This document shows, piece by piece, positions 10,314-46,846 of a stretch of 64,000 nucleotides of DNA. Below the pieces are notes generated by a model. That model was not told the origin of the DNA. It did not search any database and was given only the letters and a program-made list of their open reading frames with translations. This DNA comes from Bacteroidia bacterium (lineage in GTDB: Bacteria > Bacteroidota > Bacteroidia > Bacteroidales > VadinHA17), in contig JAPLED010000065.1 of assembly GCA_026391475.1 (NCBI GenBank), forward strand, positions 38,702 to 102,701. The letters are read 5' to 3'. Every line of letters starts with the position of its first letter. The first letter of the stretch is position 1. The translations under genes were made by a program, and so were the position numbers.

Positions 10314-10315
10314 TC

Positions 10316-15426: not shown

Positions 15427-16419
15427 CTACCTGAACTGTTTCACGTATTCCAGAAACGTCTTTGCGCTTTTATCAAGATTTTCAATTGAGCCACCGCCCT
15501 CCAGTACCTCACACATCTCGTAAGCTATATAGCCCTGGTAACCGATCTCTTTCAGTGTATTTATGAAAGTTTTATAATCGAGAAAACCTTCACCAATCGG
15601 AACGGCCCTCATTTGTGACTCCAACCTGAGGTAATTTGTCTGAAGGTGCTCATATTTAAATCTTGGAAGTTCTTTATAATCGGCAGTGGTTGTGTGTACT
15701 AGATATGGCTTCATTGAGTAAATGGCCTTTTTTATTTCTTCTGAGGATAGTCCTTCAAGAGTAGGGGACCAGCAATCGAACGCAGCTTTTACATTTGGCA
15801 GGTTTACCTCATCGAGCAGCCATTTCATTGCGTCGTGGTGGATAGCAATATCATGATGGTTCTGTACTGCAAGTGTAATACCATATTTTGCAGCAATTTT
15901 ACCTGCCAACCGGAGTCCCTCAACAACCATTGCATATTGTTTGTCGTATGGAAGATCGGGTCGTTCATACCCAGTGTATATCCTCACCATATTGGTACCG
16001 AGATCGCGTGCCAGACGTGCCAGTTCACCAACATAAATTGCCTGTATTTCGACATTAGGTATGCCGGCTTTATCGACTCCTGCTGTGAAATCGGTGTAAC
16101 CTGCCAGGCAAACAAGTTCGAGACCCAGCTCTTTGAGTCTTGCACGAAGTTTCTGCCGGGCGGCATCATCATAATCAATAAGTGAAACATGAGGTCGTTT
16201 TGCTGCGAGCATAACACCGTCAAAACCAAGCTCTTTGGCTTTAACAAGAAACTCATCAACAGTGAGTGTTGCCTGTCCGCGCCATATTCCCATATAGCTT
16301 ACAGAGTGCAGGCAGGTCTTAACCTTAAAATCTTTTGGATCACCGGTAGGTACCTTTTGTCCGTTAACGACAACGGTCAGAATACCAAGTATTGTCAGAA
16401 TACTGCATGTTTTTCTCAT
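15427..16419 (-). CDS. Xylose-isomerase-like TIM-barrel protein (sugar phosphate isomerase/epimerase family), with signal peptide
   Basis: 330 aa. N-terminal MRKTCSILTILGILTVVVNGQ. The GFDGVML, VRIYTGY and LAVQNHHD blocks are typical of the AP_endonuc_2 / xylose-isomerase-like fold. Confidence 0.78.
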   Translation of the reverse strand: MRKTCSILTILGILTVVVNGQKVPTGDPKDFKVKTCLHSVSYMGIWRGQATLTVDEFLVKAKELGFDGVMLAAKRPHVSLIDYDDAARQKLRARLKELGLELVCLAGYTDFTAGVDKAGIPNVEIQAIYVGELARLARDLGTNMVRIYTGYERPDLPYDKQYAMVVEGLRLAGKIAAKYGITLAVQNHHDIAIHHDAMKWLLDEVNLPNVKAAFDCWSPTLEGLSSEEIKKAIYSMKPYLVHTTTADYKELPRFKYEHLQTNYLRLESQMRAVPIGEGFLDYKTFINTLKEIGYQGYIAYEMCEVLEGGGSIENLDKSAKTFLEYVKQFR

Positions 16420-22229: not shown

Positions 22230-22253
22230 CATAAACCATTAAAACCAAAGTTT

Positions 22254-25421: not shown

Positions 25422-25432
25422 TATAAGTAATT

Positions 25433-27262: not shown

Positions 27263-27281
27263 AACTTAAAAAGAAACAGAT

Positions 27282-28265
27282 ATGAAAAAGTTATTAGCTT
27301 TTATAATTCTTTCAATAGCAATGGTTTCATGCTATGATAATTATATTTACGATTTTACCTATACCGGCATATATTTCCCTTACCAGATGGATGTCCGTAC
27401 TTTTGTGGTAGGTGAGGGGATGAAATTTGAGGTTGGTGCTGCGTTAGGCGGAGTCAGAGAGAACACTATTAACCGCAATGTGAGCTTTATTCTTGATAAT
27501 GCGCTGATTACACCAGCAAGACTTGCACTAATGAAAGCGGCTTCTCAGCCTTATATAAAGAATCCTGCAACCCCTGTTGTAACATTGCTGCAATTACCTG
27601 CAAACTATTATACAATCAGCAATCCAACTACGATGGTAATTAAGACAGGTCAGCATTCGGGAACAGTGACCATAAAACCGGACTCTGTTGCTTTCCTGAA
27701 CGATTCTTTAAAAACAATGTATTCCACCTATGCCCTGCCATTTCGTATTACTGCAGCAGATGCCGATTCTATGCCTTACCTTAAAAGAACCAATATTGTT
27801 GGTGTAAGGTTTGAGAACATGCTTTTCGGAAACTACTGGCATGGTGGAGCAGCATTGGTCAATCGTCCGGGTAAAGTGGATACAACAATGATTTACAGGT
27901 GGGCTGTTAATGATATTGCATCAAAAATATGGACACTTACCACGTTCGGACCAAACACCCTGGTTACCAATGGGTACTTTAGTCAGACAACTACCAAGAC
28001 TGAGTTAAAACTCGTTCTTAAAGGAAACAAGGTTTATGTGAGTACTGCTGCCGGTTCAACCTATACTTATGTGCCGGATGCAGTGGGTACTTTTAACCGA
28101 GCAAAACTGATTCAGGACAGGAAGATCTTCCTGAAGTATACTTATACAGTCCCCGGTGTCGGTGGTTTTACGTATCACTGCACTGATACACTGATTTTCC
28201 GTAACAGGCTCCGTGATGGTATAAATGAGTGGCAGGATGAGAATCCTTCGCACTATACGAAGTAG
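27282..28265 (+). CDS. Surface lipoprotein, DUF1735/BT_3987-like (candidate surface glycan-binding protein)
   Basis: 327 aa. Lipobox AMVSC. It sits directly after a SusD gene. I recognise the N-terminal pattern (YDFTYTGIYFPYQ..RTFVVGEG) as DUF1735-like, but that is from memory only. Confidence 0.55.
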   Translation: MKKLLAFIILSIAMVSCYDNYIYDFTYTGIYFPYQMDVRTFVVGEGMKFEVGAALGGVRENTINRNVSFILDNALITPARLALMKAASQPYIKNPATPVVTLLQLPANYYTISNPTTMVIKTGQHSGTVTIKPDSVAFLNDSLKTMYSTYALPFRITAADADSMPYLKRTNIVGVRFENMLFGNYWHGGAALVNRPGKVDTTMIYRWAVNDIASKIWTLTTFGPNTLVTNGYFSQTTTKTELKLVLKGNKVYVSTAAGSTYTYVPDAVGTFNRAKLIQDRKIFLKYTYTVPGVGGFTYHCTDTLIFRNRLRDGINEWQDENPSHYTK

Positions 28266-28306: not shown

Positions 28307-28342
28307 AGCACTGTCTTCCGGGAGGAAGACAGTGCTTTTTTA
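28307..28342 (+). terminator. Rho-independent terminator closing the SusC/D operon
   Basis: AGCACTGTCTTCC-GGGA-GGAAGACAGTGCT forms a perfect 13-bp stem and is followed by TTTTTT. Confidence 0.85.
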
Positions 28343-28412: not shown

Positions 28413-29819
28413 ATGAAAATAAAGCTATTAGTTCTGTTTTTTTTAATTGTAGTTTTTGGAAAGATTTCCGCACAGTTACCACAGGATGTTTATAAAAAAC
28501 CTCTTAAAGAGGTGCTTGTCGATTTAGAGAAGAAGTACAATATTAAACTTGAGTATAGTGAAAACTTAGTGAAGGGTATCAACGTTTTATACCCGACATG
28601 GCGCTACAGGATTGATACTGAAACGACGCTGACCAATATCCTGATGCCTCTCGATATGGTCTTTCAGAAAAAAAGCGATAATGTTTACCAGATTGCAAAA
28701 TTCGAATATTATCGTAAAACATTCGAAGAGGGGAAGAGGCACCTCGATCAGCTCCTTGCAAGCTATCCAACAGTTCAGGATTGGGAGCAGCGAAAAAAAG
28801 AGCTTCGTAGTTGTTTCCTTCAACAGTTGAGGCTTTCACCACTTCCGAAAAAGACTCCTCTTAATCCGATTTATACTCAAAAACGGGTGATGGATGGCTA
28901 TACTATTGAGAATGTTGCTATTGAGACATTACCCGGAGTTTATCTTTGTGGTTCTCTTTACCGTCCTTCGAAAGGAAAAGGCCCTTTTGCGGCAGTACTC
29001 AGCCCCCACGGTCATTTCCCAAGTGCAGACCTGAATGAATATGGTCGTTACCGTCCGGACCAGCAATATCGTTGTGCAACATTGGCAAGGATGGGAGCAG
29101 TTGTTTTCAGCTATGAAATGTTTGCCTGGGGTGAATCGCTGCTTCAGGTTGAAAAAGAGGTACATAAAACCGGATTGGCTCTTACAATGCAAACATTGAA
29201 TAGTATCAGGGTACTCGATTTCCTTACTTCACTACCTTATGTCGATCCAAAAAGGATTGGTGTTACTGCTGCTTCCGGAGGTGGTACTCAATCTTTTCTT
29301 ATAACAGCTCTCGATGACAGGATAGCGGTAAGCGTTCCGGTTGTTATGGTGTCGGCATCTTTCTTTGGCGGATGTCCATGCGAAAGCGGTTTGCCAATTC
29401 ATTCATGTACCAATCTTGGAACTAATAATGCCGAGATTGCAGCAATGGCTTCACCTCGTCCGATGTTGGTTGTTTCTGAAACAAGCGACTGGACACAGAC
29501 CGTTCCGACCATAGAATTTCCTTACCTGAAAAAAGTATATAGCCTGTACGGAAAACCTGAAAACATTGAGAATGTGCATATTGAAAACGAAGAACATAAT
29601 TATGGTATTACAAAACGTCTGGCCATGTACGATTTTATGGCACGTCAACTGGGACTGAATATTAACGCTATTAAAGATAAAGCAGGTAAAATTGATGAAT
29701 CGAAATGCACCATTGAGAAATATGATGCAATGCTGGTATTCGGAAAAGAGGGGAGCCTTCCTGCAAATGCAGTTAAAGGTCCGGATGCTATCTGGGAGGT
29801 ATTGAAGTCGCTGCAATAA
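28413..29819 (+). CDS. Secreted alpha/beta-hydrolase (acetyl-xylan-esterase/dienelactone-hydrolase-like) with an N-terminal STN/FecR-C-like domain
   Basis: I take the start at MKIKLLVLFFLIVVFGKISAQ; the track ORF begins at an upstream TTG. The first ~100 aa after the signal peptide (PLKEVLVDLEKKYNIKLEY...TTLTNILMPLDMVFQKKSDNVYQI) follow the STN short-domain pattern. The C-terminal part has GVTAASGGGTQS (a nucleophile-elbow-like block) and a HNYG block. Confidence 0.65.
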   Translation: MKIKLLVLFFLIVVFGKISAQLPQDVYKKPLKEVLVDLEKKYNIKLEYSENLVKGINVLYPTWRYRIDTETTLTNILMPLDMVFQKKSDNVYQIAKFEYYRKTFEEGKRHLDQLLASYPTVQDWEQRKKELRSCFLQQLRLSPLPKKTPLNPIYTQKRVMDGYTIENVAIETLPGVYLCGSLYRPSKGKGPFAAVLSPHGHFPSADLNEYGRYRPDQQYRCATLARMGAVVFSYEMFAWGESLLQVEKEVHKTGLALTMQTLNSIRVLDFLTSLPYVDPKRIGVTAASGGGTQSFLITALDDRIAVSVPVVMVSASFFGGCPCESGLPIHSCTNLGTNNAEIAAMASPRPMLVVSETSDWTQTVPTIEFPYLKKVYSLYGKPENIENVHIENEEHNYGITKRLAMYDFMARQLGLNINAIKDKAGKIDESKCTIEKYDAMLVFGKEGSLPANAVKGPDAIWEVLKSLQ

Positions 29820-29824
29820 TACAT

Positions 29825-29938
29825 GAACTCACCCCCCGTCCCCCTCTCTGCTTCGCAAAGAGGGGGTGTAACACATTGTATATTAGTAAATTCTCCCTCT
29901 TTGCGAAGCAGAGAGGGGGAAAAGAAGGGGGTGAGTTC
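29825..29938. repeat. Large imperfect inverted repeat filling a convergent intergenic gap
   Basis: The arms are GAACTCACCCCC-(cgt)-CCCCCTCTCTGCTTCGCAAAGAGGGGG (29825-29866) and its reverse complement CCCTCTTTGCGAAGCAGAGAGGGGG-(aaaagaa)-GGGGGTGAGTTC (29895-29938). Each arm also contains an internal hairpin, CCCTCT..AGAGGG. Confidence 0.8.
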
Positions 29939-29954
29939 GTGTGGCAAGGATTCT

Positions 29955-31211
29955 TCACCCTCTAACCACCTGGTGTTTCGCAATATATTCTGGATCAATA
30001 TCAATCCCTGAACCTGCTCCTGATGGTACTGTTACCACTCCGTCATCACTCGATAGGGTAGATGTTTTGCATTCAAAAGGGAGTTCGTTGTTGAAGCCTT
30101 TAAACTCATGATAGGGGCCGGCATTAGGTATCGCCGAGACGAAATGCATCATATAAAGGTACCCTAATCCGGATCCTGAAATATGAGGTGTGCATTGCTT
30201 GCCGAAAGAATTTGCCATTCTTGCAACTTTCATCGACCTGATCATTCCTCCGAAATAGAACATGTCGGGCTGAACAATCTGAAGTGCATCGCTGCCAATA
30301 AGCCAGCGGAACATGTGAATGCTTGGTTCCTGCTCCCCACCTGCTATAGGTATCGATAAAGCATCAGCTACATCTTTTGTCTCTTCATACCAATCGAATG
30401 GAACGGGTTCTTCATAAAAGTCTATTTTATATTCTTCCATTATCCTGCCTATTCTTATCGCTTCATCTGCTGTATATGAACCGTTAGAATCAGCATAAAT
30501 AACCATTTTATCTCCGAAAGTTTTTCTTACAAGAGGGATAAGTTTTTCTGTTCTTCCTTTTGGCTCCTCAAAATTATTGCTCATCCTTCCGCCTGCTTTA
30601 AACTTCAACGCTTTAGCTTTGGATTCCCCAACCTCCTTCTTAAGATGTTCTATTGTCAACTCAGGACTGATACCACGTTCTCCATTAGCCTGATAAACAG
30701 CAATCCGGGGATTATGAATTTCTCCGATAAGTTGTCCTATCGATTTATTTACTATATGGCCAAGCATATCGAGTATTGCAAATTCGATAGTTGCTAAAGG
30801 AACCCACAAAGCCAGATTCTGCATCTTATAATTGCTCTGGTAAACATAAACCTCTTCAAAGAGAGCTTCAAGATCACGGGCATCTTTACCAATGAAGAAT
30901 GGTTGAAGACGGTTAACAAAAACAGGGTAGAGCGACTTCATCTGGTCGTTATTGGCAACAGATATACCGACAGCGCCATCTTTGGATCTGACTCTGCAGA
31001 GAAAATTGTTATTAAACTTTAAAAGTTCGAGAGTTTCTATAATTATGGGTGATTGAAACTGTTCTTTCTTCAGAACAGGCCTTCTGATAATTTCATCCAG
31101 CGTTTTATATTTCTCATTTATTTTAGCTGATTGAAAGGAAAGACCAGGCAGGGCGACAGCCACACTTCCTGCAAGAGTTGTTTCAATGAACTGACGTCTT
31201 GTATGTTTCAT
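29955..31211 (-). CDS. Enolase-superfamily enzyme (mandelate racemase subgroup, acid-sugar-dehydratase-like) with a twin-arginine signal
   Basis: 418 aa. The N-terminus MKHTRRQFIETTLAGSVAVALPG is a TAT motif (RRxFI). KFKAGG (KxK), the metal-ligand-like blocks YADSNG, YEEP and AGGEQ, and VQPD plus TPHI (an Asp-His dyad) fit the MR subgroup. Confidence 0.78.
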   Translation of the reverse strand: MKHTRRQFIETTLAGSVAVALPGLSFQSAKINEKYKTLDEIIRRPVLKKEQFQSPIIIETLELLKFNNNFLCRVRSKDGAVGISVANNDQMKSLYPVFVNRLQPFFIGKDARDLEALFEEVYVYQSNYKMQNLALWVPLATIEFAILDMLGHIVNKSIGQLIGEIHNPRIAVYQANGERGISPELTIEHLKKEVGESKAKALKFKAGGRMSNNFEEPKGRTEKLIPLVRKTFGDKMVIYADSNGSYTADEAIRIGRIMEEYKIDFYEEPVPFDWYEETKDVADALSIPIAGGEQEPSIHMFRWLIGSDALQIVQPDMFYFGGMIRSMKVARMANSFGKQCTPHISGSGLGYLYMMHFVSAIPNAGPYHEFKGFNNELPFECKTSTLSSDDGVVTVPSGAGSGIDIDPEYIAKHQVVRG

Positions 31212-31251
31212 GATTACATGAGTTTTTTAGCAATAACATATTTTATAAAAC

Positions 31252-32340
31252 CTACTTCTCCCATTTCGCTTTCCATGCAGGATATTTATCAAAAACCTCT
31301 TGTGGTGCAGTTGTGTACCAACTATAGCCATTACGTCTTTCATATCCAATCTCTTCCAGTGCCTTCTTCTTGATCCCGTCACGATCGCAAACGTAGGGCA
31401 ATTCAGTTTCCAGATCATAAAACCTTGCCCACATGTCTCCGGCTTTTGGATCGGAAATTATCCTTCTGTCTTTCAATCCATCCTTGTTTGTGAAACTCTC
31501 CCACCTTGTATTTTTTATTCTGTGCGAATCGAGCCATTCAATTGCCCCGTGAACCGATTTAATTATTACAGGAGAAGGATCAGGAATTTCCATCAGCAGA
31601 TTTATTATCCCAACCGATTCGGCTCCACTGAACGATGGCAATTCATATGAACGGGCTTTGGCAGGCAGGAATGTGTTTTCATCATGCTGGGCACACCAGA
31701 CTGTCGGTTTACTCTTAACTATTATCTGTGTCTTAAGTATGCAATCAATTCCCTTACCGAATGCAGTTTTTGTTTTTGCAACGACATCATCGGTGGCCAC
31801 AAATGAGTATAATGGATTTTTATTGAAAATATCTTTAAGCATTTCCATTATATTAACAACACAATTATCATTGTATGTAATATGAGTATAGTATCCTTGG
31901 CGAAGAGGGTAGAACATAGGCCATCCGCCATTATCATATTGTGCTTCAAGGATATAATCAAGGCCTTTCTTAAATACCTGACTGTATTTTTCAACTTTGG
32001 TATTGTTATACATCCTGGCCAGGAACTTCATTTCGGTAGTAGTTGCATCATTATCCAGAATGGCATCAAGGGTGTCTTTTTTTCTCAGCAGATTAGTTTT
32101 TTCTGCGTCTGTTAACGGCTTATGCATGGGAAAGTTTTTTGGCCAGCCTCCTGAGCTCCTCTGGTAAAGAAGAACATTTTCTGCCACTGCTTTAGATTCT
32201 TCCGAACCATACCATGAATCTGGCATCTGTGTGGCTACATATTTCCACGAACGCTGACTGATAGAAGTTTGTGCATTGACAATGTGTGCCCCAAATGAAA
32301 GCGCAAGAATGGCTAAAATAGTTTTTAAAAATTTTCTCAT
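31252..32340 (-). CDS. Pectate lyase, PelA/Pel-15E family (PL10-like), secreted
   Basis: 362 aa with a signal peptide. AENVLLYQRSSGGWPKNF and YDNGGWPMFYP are blocks I recognise from the PL10 (alpha/alpha)3-barrel pectate lyases. Confidence 0.68.
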   Translation of the reverse strand: MRKFLKTILAILALSFGAHIVNAQTSISQRSWKYVATQMPDSWYGSEESKAVAENVLLYQRSSGGWPKNFPMHKPLTDAEKTNLLRKKDTLDAILDNDATTTEMKFLARMYNNTKVEKYSQVFKKGLDYILEAQYDNGGWPMFYPLRQGYYTHITYNDNCVVNIMEMLKDIFNKNPLYSFVATDDVVAKTKTAFGKGIDCILKTQIIVKSKPTVWCAQHDENTFLPAKARSYELPSFSGAESVGIINLLMEIPDPSPVIIKSVHGAIEWLDSHRIKNTRWESFTNKDGLKDRRIISDPKAGDMWARFYDLETELPYVCDRDGIKKKALEEIGYERRNGYSWYTTAPQEVFDKYPAWKAKWEK

Positions 32341-32391
32341 AGGATCTTGATAAAAGTTAAAGTATTTTTTAATAGTCTGAAAAATAATTTT

Positions 32392-33384
32392 TTACCGGAT
32401 AAACTTCGGAGCAGGTGCGCCTGATGAAGGAACCGGTAATCCATCAATGGTCTTTGGCTCCATTATTTCGACACGCGTTCCATCTCCGTCATAATAATTA
32501 ATCTGCCTTTTCCTGTTAATACCTGTTTTCATTTCGGTTGGAATCCTGGAACCTTCGGGGAGTTTCCGGCTTTGTAATATTTTACCGGAGGTTGCTACGT
32601 CATCGACTACAAGACAAATATGATTCATGGTACCCTTACGATCTGTTGATGGCTCTTTTTCAAACAACATGAACTCGATATAGTCATCTCCTTCAGGGAC
32701 TTTCATATTTACCCAGCTTAGCATTGTCCCGTTGGAACTCCCGCGCCAGATCTCTTTAAATCCGAGAATATCGCGATAGAATTTCATAGCAGAATCGATA
32801 TTTGCAACCATTATACCAACATGGCTCATGTGGTCAGAGATTCGGGTATCGGGCATATCTTTTCCAAAATTCTGCATGGTCCAGCCATTGGGTGTATATT
32901 GAACAATCTCACATATTATGCCATTCGGGTCAGTAACAAAATAGTTTAAATTACCGGTTCGTCCTGCCGGAGTTTTTTCAGGTACTTTAATACCTTTTGA
33001 TGCCATGTATTGACGCATTCCTTCAGCATCATCCGTCTCAATGGCAAAATGATAAAGCCGGTCGCTGCCTGAAGCTCTTTCAGGGAAAATTTCAATTACC
33101 TGGCGATCGTTTATCTTGATATATGTCAGAGTCAGTTCATCGCTGTTATTCTTTTTCAGGGAATATGGTTCAGCATAACCAAGAAGGTCTTTGTAGAAAG
33201 CACGTGCCTGATCAATATTTTTTACAAAAAATGCAGCATGAGCCACACCTGTAATTTTTGGGCGTTTTACATTCCTGGTCATCTGTGAGTGAAGTGGTAA
33301 TAGCCCTGCAACCAGTACCAGAACAGTTATTAAAAAACATCTTTTCAAATGATGATTATTTTTCCTTGTAACTGAAATCTTCAT
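32392..33384 (-). CDS. Two-domain VOC (glyoxalase/bleomycin-resistance/dioxygenase) family protein with signal peptide
   Basis: 330 aa. It has two repeats of the VOC beta-alpha-beta-beta-beta start pattern (ITGVAHAAFFVKNIDQARAFYKDLLGY and MSHVGIMVANIDSAMKFYRDILGF) and a hydrophobic N-terminal signal ending LPLHSQ. Confidence 0.75.
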   Translation of the reverse strand: MKISVTRKNNHHLKRCFLITVLVLVAGLLPLHSQMTRNVKRPKITGVAHAAFFVKNIDQARAFYKDLLGYAEPYSLKKNNSDELTLTYIKINDRQVIEIFPERASGSDRLYHFAIETDDAEGMRQYMASKGIKVPEKTPAGRTGNLNYFVTDPNGIICEIVQYTPNGWTMQNFGKDMPDTRISDHMSHVGIMVANIDSAMKFYRDILGFKEIWRGSSNGTMLSWVNMKVPEGDDYIEFMLFEKEPSTDRKGTMNHICLVVDDVATSGKILQSRKLPEGSRIPTEMKTGINRKRQINYYDGDGTRVEIMEPKTIDGLPVPSSGAPAPKFIR

Positions 33385-33655
33385 ATTCTTATTTCCTCCG
33401 GTTCGAAATATATAAAAATTTGTCCGGGTATCGGCATTTCCTATTAATATTCTGCTTAAAGGAGATCATGGATTTTACCTGGTAGAAATACCTGTTAAAA
33501 AATGCTACGCTGAAAGTATAGGAGCCATTATTTTGGAAGAAATGAAATAATTTCTACATTTACCTCAATTGTTTTTCGATTTGAAATTATTAGAAATTAA
33601 GTACTTAGAATTCAGGAACTCCAAACTCTATACTTATTAATTAAATCCTTATCAA

Positions 33656-34534
33656 ATGAAAAAAAGAAGTTTTATTACGATTGTTCTGTTAATGGCTGTT
33701 ACCGGCATGATCTTTTCAACTTTCTATTCATGTATGCCGGTAAAGAAAAACATAGGATTGCAGTTGTACTCTCTACGCGATTCTATTACAAAAAATGTGC
33801 CTGGAGCTATTGCTAAAGTGAGTAAAATGGGTTATAAATTTGTTGAGCCGGCAAGTTATGCCAACGGAAAGTTTTACGGTTTAGATCCTGTAGCTTTTAA
33901 AGATCTTTGTAAGGCTAATAAAATGACTGTATTGAGCTCACATACCGGCAGAAATGCACCAGATGCAACAAATAAGGCAGAAACTATGGCCTGGTGGGAT
34001 GCTTGTATTGATGCCCATGTTGCTGCCGGTGCAAAATATATTGTACAGCCATCAATGGGACAGACTGCATATAAAAGTATTGAAGGACTGAAAGCATATT
34101 GCGATTATTTTAATGAAGTAGGTGCAAAATGTAATGCAAAAGGTATCCGTTTTGGTTATCATAATCATGATAAGGAATTCTCTACCAAGCTGGAAGGACA
34201 AACAATCTACGACTACATGCTCGCGAATACCGATCCGAAAAAAGTCATGTTCGAGATGGATCTTTACTGGGCTGTTGTCGGAGGAGCAAATCCTGTCGAT
34301 TATTTCAATAAATATCCCGGACGTTTTGAACTATGGCACATAAAAGATAAAGAAGAGATTGGCGCAAGCGGAATGATGGATTTTGCTGCCATCTGGAAAG
34401 GTGTTGCTAAATCCGGAATGAAGTATGGCGTCGTAGAGGTGGAAAGGTACAACTTCGACGAGTTTACAAGCTGCCAGAAGAGCATTGATTTCCTGAATGC
34501 TGCTGACTATGTTGTAATGCCTAAAAAGAAATAG
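33656..34534 (+). CDS. Xylose-isomerase-like TIM-barrel protein (sugar phosphate isomerase/epimerase family), lipoprotein-type signal
   Basis: 292 aa. The N-terminus MKKRSFITIVLLMAVTGMIFSTFYSC ends in a Cys. The GYKFVE, FGYHNHDKEF, EMDLYW and WHIKD blocks are typical of this fold. Confidence 0.78.
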   Translation: MKKRSFITIVLLMAVTGMIFSTFYSCMPVKKNIGLQLYSLRDSITKNVPGAIAKVSKMGYKFVEPASYANGKFYGLDPVAFKDLCKANKMTVLSSHTGRNAPDATNKAETMAWWDACIDAHVAAGAKYIVQPSMGQTAYKSIEGLKAYCDYFNEVGAKCNAKGIRFGYHNHDKEFSTKLEGQTIYDYMLANTDPKKVMFEMDLYWAVVGGANPVDYFNKYPGRFELWHIKDKEEIGASGMMDFAAIWKGVAKSGMKYGVVEVERYNFDEFTSCQKSIDFLNAADYVVMPKKK

Positions 34535-34560
34535 CTGATTATTAATTAGTTTTCTTATTT

Positions 34561-34608
34561 AAGGGAAGATCATAGAAATAGTTTTTTATGTGATCTTCCC
34601 TTTTTTTT
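34561..34608 (+). terminator. Rho-independent terminator
   Basis: AAGGGAAGATCA and TGATCTTCCCTT form the stem around a 21-nt loop, followed by a TTTTTTT tract, 27 nt after the stop codon. Confidence 0.72.
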
Positions 34609-34642
34609 CTTATATTTATTTCTTACCAATCAATCAAAAAAG

Positions 34643-35728
34643 ATGAAGATCAGGATTACTTTTTTCATTTTTATGACATTGTCATTTGCAGGATGTCAGA
34701 ACAATTATTTTACAGCAGAAGATTATCAGTCAGTTCTGAAAATCGATTCTCATGTTCACCTGAACAGCGATAAGGGCTACTTTGAAGATCAGGCCATGAA
34801 AGATAATTTTATGCTGATCACTCTGGGAGTCGATCATTCAGATTCTGCTTCGGTAAAACAGCAACTTGATTATGCACTTTTATCAACAAAAAAGTATCCC
34901 GGAAAGGTTTTCTACGGGGCAACCTTTTATTTTGATACGGCAGGATGGGGAACAGATAATTGGAGTAAAAAAGTGATCTCTCACCTGAATACCAATATTT
35001 CGGGAGGGGCAATTTCTGTCAAGATCTGGAAAAACATCGGAATGACTGTTACCGACAGAAACGGTAAGTTTATTATGGTTGATGACCCTGCGATTAAACC
35101 TGTGATAGATTTCATAATCAGTAAGAATCTACCTATCACAGGCCACCTTGGTGAACCGCGTAACTGCTGGCTTCCTCTGAACGAAATGACGGTAAGCAGC
35201 GACAGTAGTTATTTTGCCCGTAACCCGCAGTACCATATGTTCCTCCATCCGGAATATCCTTCTTATGAAGATCAGATAAATGCACGGGATCACCTTCTTG
35301 AGATGCATCCAGACCTGAAATTTATCGGGTGCCACCTTGGCAGTCTCGAATGGAACGTAGACGAACTCGCCAAAAGGCTCGATAAGTTCCCGAATTTGGC
35401 GGTTGACATGTCTGCCCGCATCTGCCATCTTCAATACCAGTCAGCCAAAGACCGCGAAAGAGTTCGTAATTTTTGCATAAAGTATCAGGACAGGCTGTTG
35501 TACGGTACCGACCTTGCAGATAGTGGGACCAATAACGGTGAAGGGCTTGCAAAACGGATACATGAAACCTGGCTTGATGACTGGAAATATTTCACTTCAA
35601 AAGATGAGATGACTTCAGATTTGTTCAAAGGGAAATTTGTAGGGCTTCAGCTTCCAAAAGAGGTGGTCAAAAAAATATTTAGTGAAAATGCGATCAAATG
35701 GTATAAGCTGAATAAATTGGCTCAATAA
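34643..35728 (+). CDS. Amidohydrolase-superfamily (amidohydrolase_2-like) metal hydrolase, lipoprotein
   Basis: 361 aa. Lipobox LSFAGC. IDSHVHL (HxH), GHLGEP, GCHLGS and YGTDL (strand-8 Asp) match the TIM-barrel amidohydrolase metal-ligand pattern. Confidence 0.68.
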   Translation: MKIRITFFIFMTLSFAGCQNNYFTAEDYQSVLKIDSHVHLNSDKGYFEDQAMKDNFMLITLGVDHSDSASVKQQLDYALLSTKKYPGKVFYGATFYFDTAGWGTDNWSKKVISHLNTNISGGAISVKIWKNIGMTVTDRNGKFIMVDDPAIKPVIDFIISKNLPITGHLGEPRNCWLPLNEMTVSSDSSYFARNPQYHMFLHPEYPSYEDQINARDHLLEMHPDLKFIGCHLGSLEWNVDELAKRLDKFPNLAVDMSARICHLQYQSAKDRERVRNFCIKYQDRLLYGTDLADSGTNNGEGLAKRIHETWLDDWKYFTSKDEMTSDLFKGKFVGLQLPKEVVKKIFSENAIKWYKLNKLAQ

Positions 35729-35839: not shown

Positions 35840-37303
35840 ATGAAGACAAGACCACATCACTTAAATCAGAATTTCACTCAGCCCTTCCTCAATTATTTTT
35901 TGAGGACGATTCTGATATTTTGTATTGCTGTACCACTACTGTTTTTGACCCGGTGCAAAACAGATATAACTGCCATTTATGAAACCGGAGTACCGGCATT
36001 TCATAGATGGGCGCCAACTCCGCCAATGGGATGGAACAGCTGGGATTGTTACGGTCCTACAGTTGTTGAAAATGAAGTTAAGGCAAATGCCGATTATATG
36101 GCAAAAAATCTTAAGAAATTTGGTTGGGAATATGTTGTTATAGATATACGCTGGTATATCGAAAACGATAAAGCCGGTGGTTATAACGAAGATAATCCGA
36201 TATACATCCTTGATGAATATGGCCGTTTAACTCCGGCTCTGAACCGCTTCCCTTCAGCGGCAAATGGTAAAGGATTTAAACCAATTGCTGATTATATCCA
36301 TAGTAAGGGCCTCAAATTCGGAATCCATATAATGCGGGGTATCCCTGTTATTGCTGTAAAGAAGAATACACCTATTCTAGGCAGCAGCGCTAAGGCCCAG
36401 GACATCTATACAACTGAGGGACAGTGCATGTGGCTCAGGGATATGTACACAATTGTTGCAGGTAAACCGGGGGCACAGGAGTACTATAATTCCCTGTTTC
36501 AGCTATATGCCTCATGGGGACTTGATTTTGTAAAGGTTGATGATCTTTCAGGACGCACCAAAGAAATTGAAATGGTGAGAAAAGCCATTGATAATTGTGG
36601 AAGGCCGATAGTAATTAGCATTTCTCCTGGCGGAGACAGGCCTGAAACGGCTGATTTTCTGAAGAATAATGTAAATATGTGGCGCACTTCGAATGATTTC
36701 TGGGATAACTGGCCGCAGCTTAAGAATCAGTTTTCAATTCTTCCCCGGTGGGTTTCACTTGGCGTTAAAGGTTGTTACCCTGACGGTGATATGCTTCCTC
36801 TTGGTAAAATAGGATTAAGGGCCGAACGCGGACAGTCACGTATGAGCGGATTCACGAAAGATGAACAATATACTTTAATGTCACTTTTTGCCATTTTCCG
36901 TTCACCATTAATGTTTGGCGGTGATCTGCCAGGCAACGATGAGTTTACACTATCATTGATCACAAACAAGGATGTTCTGGAAGTTAACCAGCACAGTATA
37001 AATGGTAAGCAACTTTTCAGGGAAAATGATATGATTGCATGGACATCTGACGATCCGAAAACAGGCGATAAATATCTGGCCCTTTTTAATGCCTCCGATC
37101 AACTACCGATTTTAAAAGGTCAGGATACACTTGGTATTGCGGTACCTGATGCAACTCCAATAACTGTTAAATTTGAACAGCTCGGCTTAACAGGAACTCA
37201 TACTGTTAAAGATTTATGGAGCAGGGAAAAACTTGGAAAATTTACAAATGAATTCACCCGGACCATTAACCGTCATGGTGCCGGACTTTATAGAATACAT
37301 TAA
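35840..37303 (+). CDS. GH27-like alpha-galactosidase family glycosidase
   Basis: 487 aa. PPMGWNSWDCYG and GLDFVKVDD correspond to the GH27 melibiase-fold N-terminal and nucleophile regions. Confidence 0.78.
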   Translation: MKTRPHHLNQNFTQPFLNYFLRTILIFCIAVPLLFLTRCKTDITAIYETGVPAFHRWAPTPPMGWNSWDCYGPTVVENEVKANADYMAKNLKKFGWEYVVIDIRWYIENDKAGGYNEDNPIYILDEYGRLTPALNRFPSAANGKGFKPIADYIHSKGLKFGIHIMRGIPVIAVKKNTPILGSSAKAQDIYTTEGQCMWLRDMYTIVAGKPGAQEYYNSLFQLYASWGLDFVKVDDLSGRTKEIEMVRKAIDNCGRPIVISISPGGDRPETADFLKNNVNMWRTSNDFWDNWPQLKNQFSILPRWVSLGVKGCYPDGDMLPLGKIGLRAERGQSRMSGFTKDEQYTLMSLFAIFRSPLMFGGDLPGNDEFTLSLITNKDVLEVNQHSINGKQLFRENDMIAWTSDDPKTGDKYLALFNASDQLPILKGQDTLGIAVPDATPITVKFEQLGLTGTHTVKDLWSREKLGKFTNEFTRTINRHGAGLYRIH

Positions 37304-37325
37304 AAACGAATTAAAACCTTTCACA

Positions 37326-38285
37326 ATGAAACGATTGAAAATCTTAATTCTTTTTGTGGCATTTATTGCATTCACTGTTTCTTCATCTTCCCAGATTCCT
37401 CAGCTTAAAAACAATGGAAAGACAACTCAGCTGATTGTGCATGGAAAACCTTTCTTAATGTTAGCTGGTGAGGCAAACAATTCATCCGGATCGAATATTG
37501 CACACATGGAAAAAACCACGAAAGATTTGAGAGAATCCAATCTGAATTCGTTGCTGGTTTCTGTTTCCTGGGAAATTGTTGAACCACAGGAAGGCATTTT
37601 TGATTTTAGCTCTGTGGATGAGCTAATCAGGGTTGCCAGAGAGAACGATATGAAATTATGCCTCTTGTGGTTTGCTTCATGGAAAAATGGTTCGAAAACA
37701 AAGGGAACCTGGAGTGAGGTGTTTGGGCAGGGAGATGATGCGGATCTGTTCTTCATGGCATGGCAATACTCACGTTACGTTAACACTATTGCAGAAGCAG
37801 GGAAGAAAGCGTATAACCTCCCCATGTTTGTTAACTGCTGGATGCCTCAGCCACGACCAAAGCCCGGCAAACCGGGAAATTACCCGAGTGGTGGCCCTAT
37901 CGTTTCTGTTCTGGATGTATGGAAAGCAGGAGCCCCTTCGGTTGACATTCTGGCACCCGATATTTATGGCGCTGATTTCAAGGATCAGGTCAATAACTTT
38001 CACAGGGCCGATAATCCCTTGTTTATACCGGAAACCAGCACAACAGAAGGACCGGCAAGCTGGGCATTTGCAGAACACGATGCTATCTGTTTTTCACCAT
38101 TCGGAATTGATAACAGAGGAAGCGTCATGGCAAGAGAGTATGCGCTTTTAAACCAATTAATGCCGGTTATTTACGGAGTGATAATCCCTCTTATGGCATC
38201 AGGGCATACCGTTCGAACCCATCAGAACCTGCAATATTTCATTTTAAAGTGTTGGTTTATGACAGATAGTTTCATCAGTATTTAA
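37326..38285 (+). pseudogene. Degenerate GH35-like (DUF5597-type beta-galactosidase-like) remnant: apparent in-frame internal deletion and C-terminal truncation
   Basis: Start at MKRLKILILFVAF. The N-terminal part (GKPFLMLAGEANNSS...VSWEIVEPQEGIFDF...LLWFASWKNG) and the later part (GTWSEVFGQGDDADLFFMAWQY...NYPSGGP...LFIPE) are family-like. No NE-type acid/base block lies between them, and the ORF stops after ~319 aa with a non-family-like tail. Confidence 0.5.
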
Positions 38286-42528: not shown

Positions 42529-42541
42529 GTCACATCTGTTG

Positions 42542-45484: not shown

Positions 45485-46846
45485 ATGACAAAGAGAAGAG
45501 AATTTATCAAAAAAAGCATTTTAGGAACTGCCGGAATAGCCATTGGCGGTATGGGCTTAAGTTCCAGATCATATGCTTCAATCATCGGTGCCAATGACAG
45601 GCTTAACCTGGCAGTAATTGGTATCCGCGGCCAGGGGGGTACACACATCAACAGCTGGTGCAGCCTTAAAGAGAGCAAGAATATTCGCCTGAAAACCCTC
45701 TGCGATGCTGATGAACAGTATTTTGCAGCAAAGGTAAAAACAGTTGTTGACAAAACAGGAGAGACCCCAACAACTACATGGGATATGCGTAAAGTGTTTG
45801 AAGACAAAGAAATAGACGCAGTATCGATGGCTATCCCAAATCACTGGCATGCACTTGGTACAATTTGGGCCTGTCAGGCCGGTAAACATGTTTATGTTGA
45901 AAAGCCCGCTACTTATGGTGTTTTTGAAGGCCGGAAAATGGTCCAGGCAGCCCGGAAATACAATGTCCGGGTACAGGCCGGTACACAAAACCGATCGATC
46001 CCCGGTGTTATGCAGGCTATGAAGTTCCTGCATGATGGAGGTATCGGTGAGGTGTTTATGTCAAAAGGTCAATGCTATAAACCACGTGATTCTTTCGGAA
46101 TTGCAAAAGATAGTACACCTCCTGAAACACTTCATTATGAATATTGGTTAGGTCCGGCTCCATACAGACCATATAACGAAAAACATGTACATTATAACTG
46201 GCACTGGTTCTGGGCTACAGGAGGTGGTGACACTGCTAATCAGGGTCCTCACCAGTTTGATATTGCCCGCTGGGGACTCAATAAGAACGAACACCCGGTT
46301 TCAATATTCTCAATGGGTGGTCTTTACGGAATAAATCCGGCTGAATGCGAACAGGAGACACCCAATACACAAACATCATTGTTTAGGTACAAGGATGGAA
46401 AAATGCTGGAATTTGAAACGCGTGGGCGTTATACAAATGGTGAATCAAGTATGGATATCCGGATTGGAAACACTTTTTATGGTACTGAAGGGTACCTCGA
46501 ACTTGATGGCGGCCAGTGGAAAGCTTTTCGCAAGCGCGAAAACAAACCTTTTGCAGGTTCCGATGTTGGTGAAAGACCTACCGATGTTATGGCAGCCCCC
46601 GGTGGATCAAGTCATTATGGTAATTTTATTGATGCAATACGTTCGGGTAAGAATGATGACTTGCATTGCGATATACTTGAAGGATTTATGTCTGCTGCGC
46701 TTCCTGCACTTGCCAATATTTCATACCGTCTGGGTCGTGAGTTAATATTTGACGGTACGAAAGAAAAGTTTGTTGAAGACCCCCAGGCAGATAAAATGCT
46801 GACAAGAGAGTACCGTAAACCTTATGTTGTTAATGATGAGGTTTAA
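45485..46846 (+). CDS. Gfo/Idh/MocA-family NAD(P) oxidoreductase with a twin-arginine signal
   Basis: 453 aa. MTKRREFIKKSILGTAGIAIGG is the TAT motif. LNLAVIGIRGQGGTH is the Rossmann start, and the EKP motif appears in VYVEKPAT. Confidence 0.85.
   Translation: MTKRREFIKKSILGTAGIAIGGMGLSSRSYASIIGANDRLNLAVIGIRGQGGTHINSWCSLKESKNIRLKTLCDADEQYFAAKVKTVVDKTGETPTTTWDMRKVFEDKEIDAVSMAIPNHWHALGTIWACQAGKHVYVEKPATYGVFEGRKMVQAARKYNVRVQAGTQNRSIPGVMQAMKFLHDGGIGEVFMSKGQCYKPRDSFGIAKDSTPPETLHYEYWLGPAPYRPYNEKHVHYNWHWFWATGGGDTANQGPHQFDIARWGLNKNEHPVSIFSMGGLYGINPAECEQETPNTQTSLFRYKDGKMLEFETRGRYTNGESSMDIRIGNTFYGTEGYLELDGGQWKAFRKRENKPFAGSDVGERPTDVMAAPGGSSHYGNFIDAIRSGKNDDLHCDILEGFMSAALPALANISYRLGRELIFDGTKEKFVEDPQADKMLTREYRKPYVVNDEV

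What the first reader, a model, noticed from the sequence alone, without database searches (positions are those of the whole stretch)
28413..35728. Six consecutive exported enzymes, most of types that are normally cytoplasmic: a candidate periplasmic sugar-acid/lactone processing module
**Seen.** Every product from 28413 to 35728 starts with an export signal.
- The STN-esterase starts MKIKLLVLFFLIVVFGKISAQ.
- The enolase-superfamily protein has a TAT signal (TRRQFIETTLAGSVAVALPG).
- The PL10 protein has a signal peptide.
- The two-domain VOC protein has a signal ending LPLHSQ.
- The TIM-barrel isomerase-like protein has a signal ending in Cys (FSTFYSC).
- The amidohydrolase has the lipobox LSFAGC.

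**Established.** Non-phosphorylative L-fucose/L-galactose and uronate routes use a dehydrogenase, then a lactonase, then an acid-sugar dehydratase. The lactonases include the amidohydrolase-superfamily cog3618 enzymes L-fucono-1,5-lactonase and L-galactono-1,5-lactonase. The dehydratases include enolase-superfamily MR-subgroup enzymes such as L-fuconate dehydratase FucD. These enzymes act in the cytoplasm.

**Inference.** The same enzyme superfamilies appear here with export signals, next to two GH29 genes, two polysaccharide lyases and a TAT-signal Gfo/Idh/MocA oxidoreductase (45485-46846). This suggests the chemistry takes place in the periplasm or at the cell surface, possibly on oligosaccharide-bound residues rather than free sugars.
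Basis: partly seen in the sequence, partly recalled or inferred. Interest (0 to 1): 0.6.

Follow-up and report, generated by a model that had tools for sequence, protein, structure and literature searches.

The report
Exported non-glycosidase enzymes in a pectin locus
Six neighbouring genes in a freshwater Bacteroidales sugar-harvesting locus really do all encode exported enzymes; two are ordinary pectin enzymes, one belongs to a recently described periplasmic glycoside-cleaving family, and three belong to large, unstudied exported families, including a twin-arginine-exported enolase-superfamily enzyme found in several phyla.

Summary
All six products have export signals, and the signals are conserved in their relatives: the RR motif in 114/116 and 75/80 enolase homologues, a lipobox-like Cys in 104/117 amidohydrolase homologues, and a Sec-type leader in 110/115 VOC homologues. 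The run is ordinary for a polysaccharide utilisation locus: 16 consecutive products (12518-38285) carry signals.

The six genes form three or four transcription units, not one module.
- The esterase is a BT1017-type RG-II/pectin methylesterase with its catalytic triad kept.
- PL10 is a standard pectate lyase.
- The TIM barrel is about 50% identical to AL1/BT1, the periplasmic 3-keto-beta-glycoside 1,2-lyases of the Withers oxidation-elimination pathway. It is not a sugar-acid enzyme.
- The TAT enolase is an MR-subgroup protein most like acid-sugar dehydratases. At least 561 loci were found, in Bacteroidota, Acidobacteriota, Verrucomicrobiota, Calditrichia and KSB1, with no universal partner. 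Recurrent neighbours are PL10, exported amidohydrolases, an exported SMP-30 lactonase, sulfatases and GFO oxidoreductases.
- The amidohydrolase cannot be placed in a subfamily. Its relatives sit with GH109-like oxidoreductases and aga-type operons.
- The VOC gene lies within 10 kb of the enolase gene in none of 80 loci examined.

It is not supported as an L-fucose/L-galactose pathway or as a six-gene unit. The scan had already noted TAT enolases on other DNA; those notes are unchecked.

The parts
28413..29819 (+). Exported BT1017-type (RG-II/pectin) methylesterase, catalytic module only, Sec signal MKIKLLVLFFLIVVFGKISAQ
   Evidence: PDB 6GOC at E 3.6e-110 over residues 24-460. In the alignment (about 50% identical by eye) the Ser (SGGG), Asp (DW) and His (EEHNYG) of the BT1017 triad are kept. 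There is no DUF3826 domain. The 'STN-like' N-terminus aligns to BT1017 residues 29-115, so it is part of the family's architecture.
28307..28336 (+). Terminator-like hairpin (13-bp stem, T-run) separating the SusCD/BT_3987-like genes from the esterase gene
29955..31211 (-). Twin-arginine-exported enolase-superfamily (mandelate racemase subgroup) enzyme; last gene of the VOC-PL10-enolase unit
   Evidence: MR_MLE_C 2e-47. Best NCBIfam models are acid-sugar dehydratases, all far below cut-off. Best PDB hits are unassigned structures 3u4f/3tcs/3t8q (E about 1e-53). K203/K205, D241, E267, E293, D316 and H343 are conserved (>=97%) in 78 sequences. RR motif conserved.
31252..32340 (-). Exported PL10 pectate lyase
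   Evidence: Pec_lyase 1.1e-109; TIGR02474 at 328 bits against a cut-off of 190. Directly upstream of the enolase gene in 11 of the 15 closest loci.
32392..33384 (-). Exported two-domain VOC (glyoxalase-fold) metalloprotein, first gene of the minus-strand unit
   Evidence: Two Glyoxalase domains. H49/E98/H112/E159 and H188/E237/H255/E306 are invariant in 32 sequences. The fold is closest to two-domain extradiol dioxygenases and a Mn 'glyoxalase' (Z 20-23). Not within 10 kb of the enolase gene in any of the 80 loci examined.
33656..34534 (+). Exported (lipoprotein-type) AL1/BT1-family TIM barrel: predicted 3-keto-glycoside 1,2-lyase
   Evidence: PDB 8TCD/8TCS/8TCT at E 1e-72 to 7e-67, aligned end to end. 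Motifs SSH, GYHNH, DxYW, HIKD and VEVE are kept. Function of AL1/BT1 from bioRxiv 10.1101/2024.03.25.586180.
34643..35728 (+). Lipoprotein of the amidohydrolase superfamily (Amidohydro_2), substrate unknown
   Evidence: Pfam 4.3e-14. No PDB sequence hit. D35/H37/H39/K127/H168/H231/D290 invariant in 55 sequences. AF2 pLDDT 93.8. The fold sits inside the Amidohydro_2 clade without resolution.
45485..46846 (+). TAT-exported Gfo/Idh/MocA oxidoreductase, candidate oxidising partner, 10 kb away in the same locus
   Evidence: Pfam. KRREFI motif. N-terminal half matches 8TDF/8TDH at E about 1e-30.
15427..16419 (-). Second exported xylose-isomerase-like TIM barrel in the locus
   Evidence: AP_endonuc_2 2.2e-33. 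Signal. No PDB sequence hit.

Best explanation
The six genes are the exported accessory-enzyme part of a pectin/RG-II-type polysaccharide utilisation locus of a freshwater Bacteroidales bacterium. They are not one pathway cassette. They form three or four transcription units that carry out different extracytoplasmic chemistry on carbonyl- and carboxyl-bearing sugars.

1. The BT1017-type methylesterase and the PL10 lyase de-esterify and cut galacturonan. This is shown by homology.
2. The TIM barrel is an AL1/BT1-type metal-dependent lyase. It removes the aglycone from 3-keto-glycosides made by tightly NAD-bound TAT-exported Gfo/Idh/MocA oxidoreductases; the genome also holds seven DUF1080 hydratase/lyase domains. 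Family membership is shown; the substrate is inferred.
3. The TAT-exported enolase-superfamily enzyme is co-transcribed with PL10. It folds and loads its metal in the cytoplasm and is exported folded. In the periplasm it abstracts the proton alpha to a sugar carboxylate. The most likely reaction is dehydration of an aldonate, uronate or aldarate (or of the acid released from a lactone) derived from the acidic glycan. This is inferred.
4. The amidohydrolase lipoprotein, co-transcribed with the TIM barrel and a GH27, is a metal-dependent hydrolase or hydratase acting on a product of periplasmic sugar oxidoreductases or glycosidases. It could be a lactonase, a glycal hydratase or a sugar de-N-acetylase. 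This is inferred and unresolved.
5. The VOC protein is a lineage-variable add-on with two glyoxalase-I-type metal sites. It is plausibly an isomerase or epimerase of an alpha-hydroxy-carbonyl sugar. This is speculative.
For: Locus type:
- Two SusC/SusD pairs, PL6-like, PL10, two GH29, GH27-like, GH3, SASA and GDSL esterases.
- Close relatives add GH28, GH2, GH92 and BNR_4.

Identities:
- Esterase = 6GOC/BT1017, triad kept.
- TIM = 8TCD/8TCS/8TCT, active-site motifs kept.
- The own genome holds 7 DUF1080 domains and 3 AL1-like barrels.

Export: signals conserved.

Enolase:
- Catalytic set conserved; closest models are acid-sugar dehydratases.
- PL10-enolase adjacency in 11/15 close loci.
- Exported SMP-30 lactonase -> enolase -> two sulfatases as one same-strand block in 4 Cyclobacteriaceae loci.
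- A second exported Amidohydro_2 directly downstream in 6 loci.
- GFO genes within two genes in 6 of 105 neighbours, and directly adjacent to a paralogue.

Amidohydrolase:
- Full HxH/K/H/H/D set.
- GH27-amidohydrolase-TIM order kept in L029 and L032.
- 40-49% identical relatives alternate with TAT GH109-like oxidoreductases, GMC oxidoreductases and DUF1080. Alternatively they sit in SIS-KbaZ/PfkB-aldolase-SSF-DeoR operons where no NagA/AgaA-type deacetylase gene was seen.

Transcription units.
Against: - No activity was measured for any of the six proteins.
- The enolase family has no universal neighbour. In many genomes it sits beside housekeeping genes such as SufE and Fe-S assembly genes, so guilt by association is weak.
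- Its best solved relatives have no assigned function, and it reaches no equivalog cut-off.
- The candidate oxidoreductase is 10 kb away, behind cytoplasmic genes, and matches the solved dehydrogenases 8TDF/8TDH only over its N-terminal half.
- A periplasmic dehydrogenase-lactonase-dehydratase chain needs an electron acceptor that I did not identify.
- The glycan target (pectin/RG-II-like) rests on three enzyme families. GH29, GH27, GH42-like and SASA would also fit other fucosylated or galactosylated glycans.
Confidence: 0.6

Rival explanations
1. One reading: one periplasmic, non-phosphorylative L-fucose/L-galactose route. A TAT Gfo/Idh/MocA dehydrogenase oxidises C1 of the sugar freed by GH29, the amidohydrolase lipoprotein opens the lactone, and the TAT enolase dehydrates the aldonate, possibly on glycan-bound residues.
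For: - Two GH29 genes in the locus.
- The enolase has an MR-subgroup catalytic set (KxK, D/E/E, Asp-His), which to my recollection is the pattern of L-fuconate dehydratase (FucD); closest models are aldonate dehydratases.
- The third-best fold match of the amidohydrolase is the cog3618 L-fucono-1,5-lactonase 4dlf (Z 19.0, rmsd 3.2, 236 aligned).
- Lactonase-enolase and amidohydrolase-enolase pairs occur in other genomes.
Against: - The enolase is transcribed with PL10, not with a GH29. The amidohydrolase is transcribed with the AL1-type lyase and a GH27.
- The oxidoreductase is 10 kb away.
- The 4dlf fold match does not stand apart from the uncharacterised proteins, decarboxylases and hydratases ranked around it, and the amidohydrolase has no sequence-level PDB hit.
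- GH29 genes appear among only 2 of the 217 flanking genes scanned in the 65 distant loci, and by tblastn within 10 kb in 4 of them.
- Another note of this scan (e1-4989770, unchecked by me) reads a cytoplasmic L-galactose/L-fucose route at 41527-45215 in the same locus.
Confidence: 0.12
2. A periplasmic version of the oxidative D-galacturonate route (uronate dehydrogenase, then an Amidohydro_2 galactarolactone isomerase Gli, then the enolase-superfamily galactarolactone cycloisomerase Gci). It would process GalA freed from pectin by PL10, the methylesterase and GH28.
For: - Pectin context, and PL10-enolase co-transcription conserved in 11/15 close loci.
- The A. tumefaciens entries 4ggb/4hpn are among the enolase's PDB hits (E 9e-25). 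That these are Gci is my recollection.
- Atu3138, entry 4mup, is among the amidohydrolase's fold matches (Z 16.6). That this is Gli is my recollection.
- Both superfamilies of that pathway are present, exported and close together.
Against: - Both matches are mid-list, well below unassigned structures.
- No uronate dehydrogenase-type gene was seen in the locus.
- The enolase and amidohydrolase genes are in different transcription units.
- The enolase also occurs with sulfatases and away from any pectin gene.
Confidence: 0.12
3. The exported enolase acts on glycan-bound uronic acids rather than on free sugars. Abstraction of H5, alpha to the carboxylate, would give C5 epimerisation or beta-elimination (a non-canonical lyase), or the enzyme would hydrate the unsaturated end left by PL10.
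For: - Enolase-superfamily chemistry (proton abstraction alpha to a carboxylate, stabilised by a metal) parallels the first step of polysaccharide lyases and uronate C5 epimerases (established knowledge, used here by analogy).
- The enzyme is co-transcribed with a lyase, is exported, and elsewhere sits among sulfatases, BNR_4, GH28 and GH2 exo-enzymes.
Against: - To my knowledge no enolase-superfamily member is known to act on a polymer.
- The genome already has four GH88/GH105 genes, so there is no gap for an unsaturated-uronate hydratase.
- No direct evidence.
Confidence: 0.1
4. The signals are annotation artefacts and the enolase, VOC and amidohydrolase are ordinary cytoplasmic enzymes.
For: No dedicated signal-peptide predictor could be run. 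Only 49 of 83 distant amidohydrolase-family representatives have a hydrophobic N-terminus.
Against: - Motifs are conserved across hundreds of homologues and several phyla, with alignments covering residue 1 onward.
- No alternative downstream start would leave the conserved catalytic domain with a better start context.
Confidence: 0.03

Closest known systems
AL/BT oxidation-elimination-hydration glycoside cleavage system (Alistipes AL1-AL3; B. thetaiotaomicron BT2156-2160; Nasseri et al., bioRxiv 10.1101/2024.03.25.586180, published in Nature 2024)
   Same: - Exported xylose-isomerase-like TIM barrel about 50% identical (by eye) to AL1/BT1, with the metal and catalytic motifs kept.
- A TAT-exported Gfo/Idh/MocA oxidoreductase in the same locus.
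- DUF1080 genes elsewhere in the genome.
- The same periplasmic, cofactor-retaining logic.
   Different: - No compact three-gene operon; no DUF1080 in the locus.
- The oxidoreductase is only distantly related to the solved dehydrogenases 8TDF/8TDH.
- The lyase gene is paired instead with an Amidohydro_2 lipoprotein and a GH27, inside a pectin-type PUL.
B. thetaiotaomicron RG-II PUL enzyme BT1017 (pectin methylesterase; PMC7939467, PDB 6GOC)
   Same: Same catalytic module including the N-terminal beta-rich part, Ser-Asp-His triad, Sec signal, PUL context with pectin enzymes.
   Different: Lacks the C-terminal DUF3826 domain. Substrate not tested. The surrounding locus lacks most of the RG-II glycosidase set of B. 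thetaiotaomicron (comparison from my knowledge of that PUL).
Cytoplasmic non-phosphorylative acid-sugar routes (L-fucose: dehydrogenase, cog3618 L-fucono-1,5-lactonase, FucD; D-galacturonate: Udh, Gli, Gci)
   Same: Same two superfamilies (enolase MR subgroup, Amidohydro_2). Lactonase-type and enolase genes are adjacent in some genomes.
   Different: - Here both proteins are exported (TAT and lipoprotein).
- Neither reaches any equivalog threshold.
- They lie in different transcription units.
- No matching dehydrogenase is adjacent.
Zymomonas mobilis periplasmic glucose-fructose oxidoreductase plus gluconolactonase
   Same: Precedent (established knowledge) for a TAT-exported Gfo-family enzyme with tightly bound cofactor making a lactone in the periplasm, followed by a periplasmic lactonase. 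GFOR entries are among the PDB hits of the window's oxidoreductase.
   Different: No periplasmic dehydratase is known in that system, and its role is sorbitol/gluconate formation, not glycan foraging.

Membership tests
AL1/BT1 3-keto-beta-glycoside 1,2-lyases (xylose-isomerase-like TIM barrel) | Full-length sequence similarity to the solved AL1/BT1 proteins | tested here: met
   8TCD E 1.5e-72, 8TCS 3.3e-72, 8TCT 6.6e-67, residues 29-286 of 292 aligned. That these entries are AL1/BT1 rests on their molecule names, the preprint's description and my recollection; the preprint text read here gives no PDB codes.
AL1/BT1 3-keto-beta-glycoside 1,2-lyases (xylose-isomerase-like TIM barrel) | Metal ligands (His, Asp, His), substrate His/Trp and catalytic Glu named in the preprint | tested here: met
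   SSH, GYHNH, D-L-Y-W, HIKD and VEVE are identical in query and in all three chains. Residue numbering could not be mapped exactly because of construct offsets.
AL1/BT1 3-keto-beta-glycoside 1,2-lyases (xylose-isomerase-like TIM barrel) | Extracytoplasmic location | tested here: met
   Signal with lipobox-like ..YSC, kept in 7/9 orthologues. AL1 has a secretion signal. Prediction only.
AL1/BT1 3-keto-beta-glycoside 1,2-lyases (xylose-isomerase-like TIM barrel) | Adjacent AL3-type TAT oxidoreductase and DUF1080 partner | tested here: not met
   The nearest TAT GFO gene is at 45485-46846 and there is no DUF1080 in the window. Seven DUF1080 domains lie on other contigs.
AL1/BT1 3-keto-beta-glycoside 1,2-lyases (xylose-isomerase-like TIM barrel) | Elimination activity on 3-keto-glycosides | not testable with these tools
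   Needs an enzyme assay.
BT1017-type pectin methylesterase | Homology to the BT1017 catalytic module, and the Ser282/Asp352/His388 triad | tested here: met
   E 3.6e-110. Ser in AASGGG, Asp in SDW and His in EEHNYG align with the triad after a 6-residue construct offset.
BT1017-type pectin methylesterase | C-terminal DUF3826 domain | tested here: not met
   The protein ends at residue 468 and the match stops at chain residue 453 of 658. The domain is not needed for catalysis in BT1017.
PL10 pectate lyase | Pfam Pec_lyase / TIGR02474 above curated cut-offs | tested here: met
   366.7 bits (cut-off 22) and 328.4 bits (cut-off 189.8).
Enolase superfamily, mandelate racemase subgroup | Barrel domain with KxK, three carboxylate metal ligands, and an Asp-His pair | tested here: met
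   MR_MLE_C 2e-47. K203, K205, D241, E267, E293, D316 and H343 conserved (>=97%) in 78 sequences.
Any characterised acid-sugar dehydratase equivalog (GalD, gluconate/galactonate, AraD, ManD, RhamD, TalrD/GalrD, GlucD) | Score above the NCBIfam equivalog cut-off | tested here: not met
   The best is 122.8 bits against a cut-off of 750; all 13 listed models are far below theirs. No L-fuconate dehydratase model appeared among the hits.
cog3618 lactonases / LigI group of Amidohydro_2 | Sequence or fold closer to these than to other Amidohydro_2 subgroups | tested here: inconclusive
   No PDB sequence hit. VIA Z: 3irs 21.0, 3cjp 20.8 (both uncharacterised), 4dlf 19.0, decarboxylases and LigJ 18-18.6, LigI 17.9, 4mup 16.6.
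Amidohydrolase superfamily | (beta/alpha)8 barrel with HxH on strand 1, His on strands 5 and 6, Asp on strand 8 | tested here: met
   H37/H39, H168, H231 and D290 are invariant, plus K127 and D35. Strand assignment is read from the DSSP strand positions of the model, pLDDT 93.8.
VOC superfamily, glyoxalase-I-like metal sites | Paired beta-alpha-beta-beta-beta modules with H/E/H/E ligands | tested here: met
   Two Glyoxalase domains. H49/E98/H112/E159 and H188/E237/H255/E306 invariant. Two-domain VOC fold, Z 20-23. The spacing compared with E. coli GlxI is from memory.

The most novel reading that the evidence does not exclude
The TAT-exported enolase-superfamily protein represents a large, cross-phylum family of periplasmic carboxylate-sugar enzymes (at least 561 loci among species-representative genomes). 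Together with exported lactonase-type proteins (SMP-30 or Amidohydro_2) and cofactor-retaining Gfo-type oxidoreductases, it would carry out an extracytoplasmic oxidise, open, dehydrate (or epimerise) conversion of sugars from acidic glycans before uptake. That would be a second 'non-Koshland' periplasmic sugar-processing toolkit beside the AL/BT system. The exported VOC and Amidohydro_2 lipoprotein families would be further unassigned members of it.
Probability: 0.3. Interest if true: 0.75.

Novelty: new variant of a known kind. Interest (0 to 1): 0.5.

Why it matters
Polysaccharide utilisation loci are usually read as sets of glycoside hydrolases, lyases and esterases. The 2024 AL/BT work showed that periplasmic redox and elimination enzymes, annotated as 'isomerases' and 'dehydrogenases', can cleave glycosides.

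This locus adds three more superfamilies that are normally thought of as cytoplasmic: enolase, Amidohydro_2 and VOC. Their export signals are conserved in hundreds of relatives. I found no paper on exported enolase-superfamily enzymes in two literature searches.

If the TAT enolase works on sugar acids in the periplasm, it changes two things. It changes how uptake and catabolism of acidic plant and algal glycans are modelled. It also gives function-discovery projects a defined, abundant target family that has cultured carriers.

Tried and rejected
I took neighbourhoods from the search for related loci, the genome search and the fetch from genomes instead.
- No SignalP/TatP/LipoP was available, so signals rest on a heuristic script and on conservation.
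- Literature: PDB codes 8TCD/8TCS and 3U4F/3TCS/3T8Q/3T9P gave no relevant paper. The Nature paper is not held, so I read its preprint. Searches for exported or TAT enolase-superfamily enzymes and for mandelate racemase/amidohydrolase in PULs gave nothing relevant.
- The ESM Atlas search of the amidohydrolase returned only its own family.
- Foldseek and VIA-align place the amidohydrolase in Amidohydro_2 but do not separate lactonase, decarboxylase and hydratase subgroups.
- 'The enolase replaces a missing GH88/GH105': rejected, because the genome has four such genes.
- 'The amidohydrolase always travels with the AL1-type barrel': not seen outside the close clade.
- The second amidohydrolase type (c9) was not found in the window's genome with this query.
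- The sigma-70 promoter scan found 44 sites against 34.7 expected, and this consensus is not the Bacteroidota one, so I did not use it.
- Expression: no RNA holder was listed. Metatranscriptome-library contigs touch only 27211-28053, 33687-33946 and 34992-35156, and could be DNA carry-over.

Full report
**What is there.**
The window is a Bacteroidota-type polysaccharide utilisation locus (PUL) with G+C about 0.40. It lies next to an ilv/leu operon. Its genes, in order, are:
- a PL6-like lyase, a GH29 and an exported xylose-isomerase-like TIM barrel (12518-16419, minus strand);
- two SusC/SusD pairs and a BT_3987-like lipoprotein (17092-28265);
- the six genes of the finding;
- a GH27-like protein, a GH42-like protein and LacI;
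- four cytoplasmic genes;
- a second GH29, a TAT Gfo/Idh/MocA oxidoreductase, a TAT GDSL esterase, an exported bicupin, a SASA esterase and a GH3.

The genome is a 2.8-Mb, 133-contig assembly. The stretch is held almost word for word by freshwater and lake metagenomes from three studies. The closest relatives are Bacteroidales and Rikenellaceae MAGs from permafrost, fen, lake-sediment and soil samples.

**The observation.**
All six ORFs and their family assignments are confirmed. I had no signal-peptide predictor, so I relied on conservation:
- A twin-arginine motif is present in 114 of 116 close enolase homologues. It is also present in 75 of 80 orthologues at 64-88% identity. These come from Bacteroidales, Cytophagales, Chitinophagales, Saprospiraceae, Acidobacteriota, Opitutaceae, Calditrichia and KSB1.
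- A lipobox-like Cys is present in 104 of 117 amidohydrolase homologues.
- A Sec-type leader is present in 110 of 115 VOC homologues.
- Leaders are present on all full-length TIM, PL10 and esterase orthologues.

Export is therefore a family property, not a start-codon artefact. The run of six is nevertheless not remarkable. Sixteen consecutive products (12518-38285) have signals, as expected in a PUL.

The six genes also belong to three or four transcription units:
- the esterase gene, behind a strong hairpin at 28307-28336;
- VOC->PL10->enolase on the minus strand;
- TIM->amidohydrolase->GH27 on the plus strand, divergent from the VOC unit.

**The two ordinary members.**
The esterase matches PDB 6GOC at E 3.6e-110. 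6GOC is BT1017, the RG-II/pectin methylesterase of B. thetaiotaomicron (PMC7939467). The C-terminal DUF3826 domain is missing. PL10 scores far above the curated cut-offs.

**The TIM barrel has a known, periplasmic explanation.**
It aligns end to end, at about 50% identity by eye, with 8TCD/8TCS/8TCT (E 1e-72 to 7e-67). The preprint of Nasseri et al. makes three relevant points:
- They act after TAT-exported Gfo/Idh/MocA oxidoreductases with tightly bound NAD (AL3/BT3).
- They act before DUF1080 hydratase/lyases (AL2/BT2).

The motifs holding the His/Asp/His metal ligands, the substrate His and Trp and the catalytic Glu are identical in the window's protein. The genome has two more AL1-like barrels and seven DUF1080 domains elsewhere. 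The locus has a TAT GFO gene whose N-terminal half matches the solved dehydrogenases 8TDF/8TDH at about 1e-30. This gene therefore belongs to oxidative glycoside cleavage, not to sugar-acid metabolism.

**The TAT enolase.**
It is an MR-subgroup protein. K203-x-K205, D241, E267, E293, D316 and H343 are conserved (>=97%) in 78 sequences. Its best profile matches are gluconate/galactonate, arabinonate and galactonate dehydratases (104-123 bits). The dipeptide-epimerase and OSBS models score 22-35 bits, and every match is far below its equivalog cut-off. Its best solved relatives (3u4f, 3tcs, 3t8q, 3t9p) carry no assigned function.

The family is large. More than 7,900 proteins score E <= 1e-20 in the metagenome collection. 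At least 561 loci occur among species-representative genomes. Within its own order it is patchy, found in 11 of 301 genomes.

The window's gene order is kept only in the 15 closest loci: PL10 in 11, TIM in 10, esterase in 9, amidohydrolase in 6 and VOC in 0. In the other 65 loci there is no universal partner. Among 217 flanking genes:
- sulfatases are the commonest (9 and 4-5);
- next come Gfo/Idh/MocA (6), SMP-30/gluconolactonase (4), GH28, GH29 and melibiase (2 each);
- one clade shows housekeeping synteny with Fe-S assembly genes and SufE.

Three recurrent pairings fit lactone or sugar-acid chemistry:
- Exported SMP-30 lactonase -> TAT enolase -> two sulfatases, as a tight same-strand block in four Cyclobacteriaceae genomes. 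A DASS-type anion transporter, identified by my reading of the family tallies rather than a direct scan, lies beside it in three of them.
- A second, unrelated exported Amidohydro_2 protein directly downstream of the enolase gene in six close loci.
- A TAT GFO gene directly beside an enolase paralogue in the sister genome.

I therefore read the protein as a periplasmic acid-sugar enzyme, most likely a dehydratase. Its strongest local tie is to the pectate lyase. The substrate is open.

**The amidohydrolase.**
It is an Amidohydro_2 lipoprotein with invariant D35, H37, H39, K127, H168, H231 and D290. It has no sequence hit in the PDB. A confident model (pLDDT 93.8) falls inside the Amidohydro_2 group. 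The best matches are two uncharacterised proteins (Z 21.0, 20.8). The cog3618 L-fucono-lactonase 4dlf follows at Z 19.0. Decarboxylases, LigJ hydratase and LigI sit at Z 18-18.6, and Atu3138 at 16.6. The fold therefore does not decide the chemistry.

Context elsewhere points to periplasmic sugar oxidoreductases and to aminosugars. Relatives at 40-49% identity occur in 17 of 401 genomes of the phylum sample, often in several copies per region. They occur in two settings:
- alternating with TAT GH109-like oxidoreductases, GMC oxidoreductases, DUF1080 and sulfatases;
- inside operons of the form SIS(AgaS-like) - GatZ/KbaZ or PfkB - PfkB - class II aldolase - EamA - amidohydrolase - SSF transporter, with a DeoR regulator.

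I saw no NagA/AgaA-type deacetylase gene in those operons. By the usual rule, agaS without agaA marks galactosamine-only use (PMC5583593). An exported de-N-acetylase is therefore as good a guess as a lactonase or a glycal hydratase. In the window and in two relatives the gene lies between the AL1-type lyase and a GH27.

**The VOC protein.**
It has two glyoxalase-fold halves, each with an invariant H/E/H/E set. Its fold is closest to two-domain extradiol dioxygenases and to a Mn-bound 'glyoxalase' (Z 20-23). It also matches a natural TIM-barrel/HPPD fusion (Z 19.5). Its family is widespread and exported. It lies within 10 kb of the enolase gene in none of the 80 loci examined. Two metagenome contigs appear to hold both genes, judged from equal contig lengths. 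It is not a core member of any module.

**Verdict.**
- There is good comparative support for one exported acid-sugar-type enolase that sometimes pairs with exported lactonase-type proteins.
- The 'six-gene periplasmic L-fucose/L-galactose acid-sugar module' is not supported. One member has a different, published function, two are standard pectin enzymes, one is not co-conserved, and the amidohydrolase is unresolved.
- The part worth following is the trio of large, uncharacterised exported families, above all the TAT enolase.
- First-stage readers of this scan had already flagged TAT enolases in six other genomes. Those notes are unchecked.

Noticed in passing
L067:7926-13267, L077:9060-11990, L102:8994-14309, L105:9044-14621: In four Cyclobacteriaceae genomes an exported SMP-30/gluconolactonase-like gene, the TAT enolase gene and two sulfatase genes form one tight same-strand block. 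In three of the four (L067, L077, L102) an apparent DASS-type anion transporter gene lies next to it (identified from family tallies, not scanned directly). In L077 the sulfatase genes look fragmented.
   Followed up: partly
L152:~5000-15000, L154:~5000-13600, L149:1814-12577, L163:~4000-13800: Flavobacteriia-type genomes hold an aga-like operon: SIS/AgaS-like, GatZ/KbaZ or PfkB, PfkB, class II aldolase, EamA, an Amidohydro_2 relative (40-45% identical to the window's) with a hydrophobic N-terminus, an SSF transporter and DeoR. It is flanked by TAT GH109-like genes and has no AgaA-type deacetylase gene that I saw. The amidohydrolase may be an extracytoplasmic GalNAc deacetylase.
   Followed up: partly
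L035:11441-12784 and five other close loci: A second, unrelated exported Amidohydro_2/Amidohydro_1-like protein (about 447 aa) lies directly downstream of the TAT enolase gene in six close relatives. It is followed by a BNR_4 protein. It was not found in the window's own genome with this query.
   Followed up: partly
window 47877-48668: A bicupin (two Cupin_2/AraC_binding-like halves) with a Sec-type signal sits between a TAT GDSL esterase and a SASA esterase. It is another 'cytoplasmic-looking' fold exported in this locus.
   Followed up: no
window 47033-47794: The GDSL esterase carries a twin-arginine motif (NRRSFI), which is unusual for a cofactor-less esterase.
   Followed up: no
window 28307-28336: A perfect 13-bp stem with a T-run lies between the BT_3987-like gene and the esterase gene. 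It is likely a terminator that splits the SusCD operon from the esterase gene.
   Followed up: no
window 37233-38285: The listed TTG start of the GH42-like ORF overlaps the GH27 gene by 70 nt. An internal Met followed by KRLKILILFVAFIAFT looks like the real start and is followed by a signal peptide.
   Followed up: no
G072:C5:6257-7510 and 17265-18509; G055 (three copies): Some genomes of the order carry two or three TAT-enolase paralogues, two of them 10 kb apart on one contig. This suggests diversification of substrate specificity within the family.
   Followed up: no
L042:6392-7273: A TAT-signal xylose-isomerase-like TIM barrel (MNTSRRSFIKSS...) replaces the VOC gene between the AL1-type barrel and PL10 in two close relatives.
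   Followed up: no
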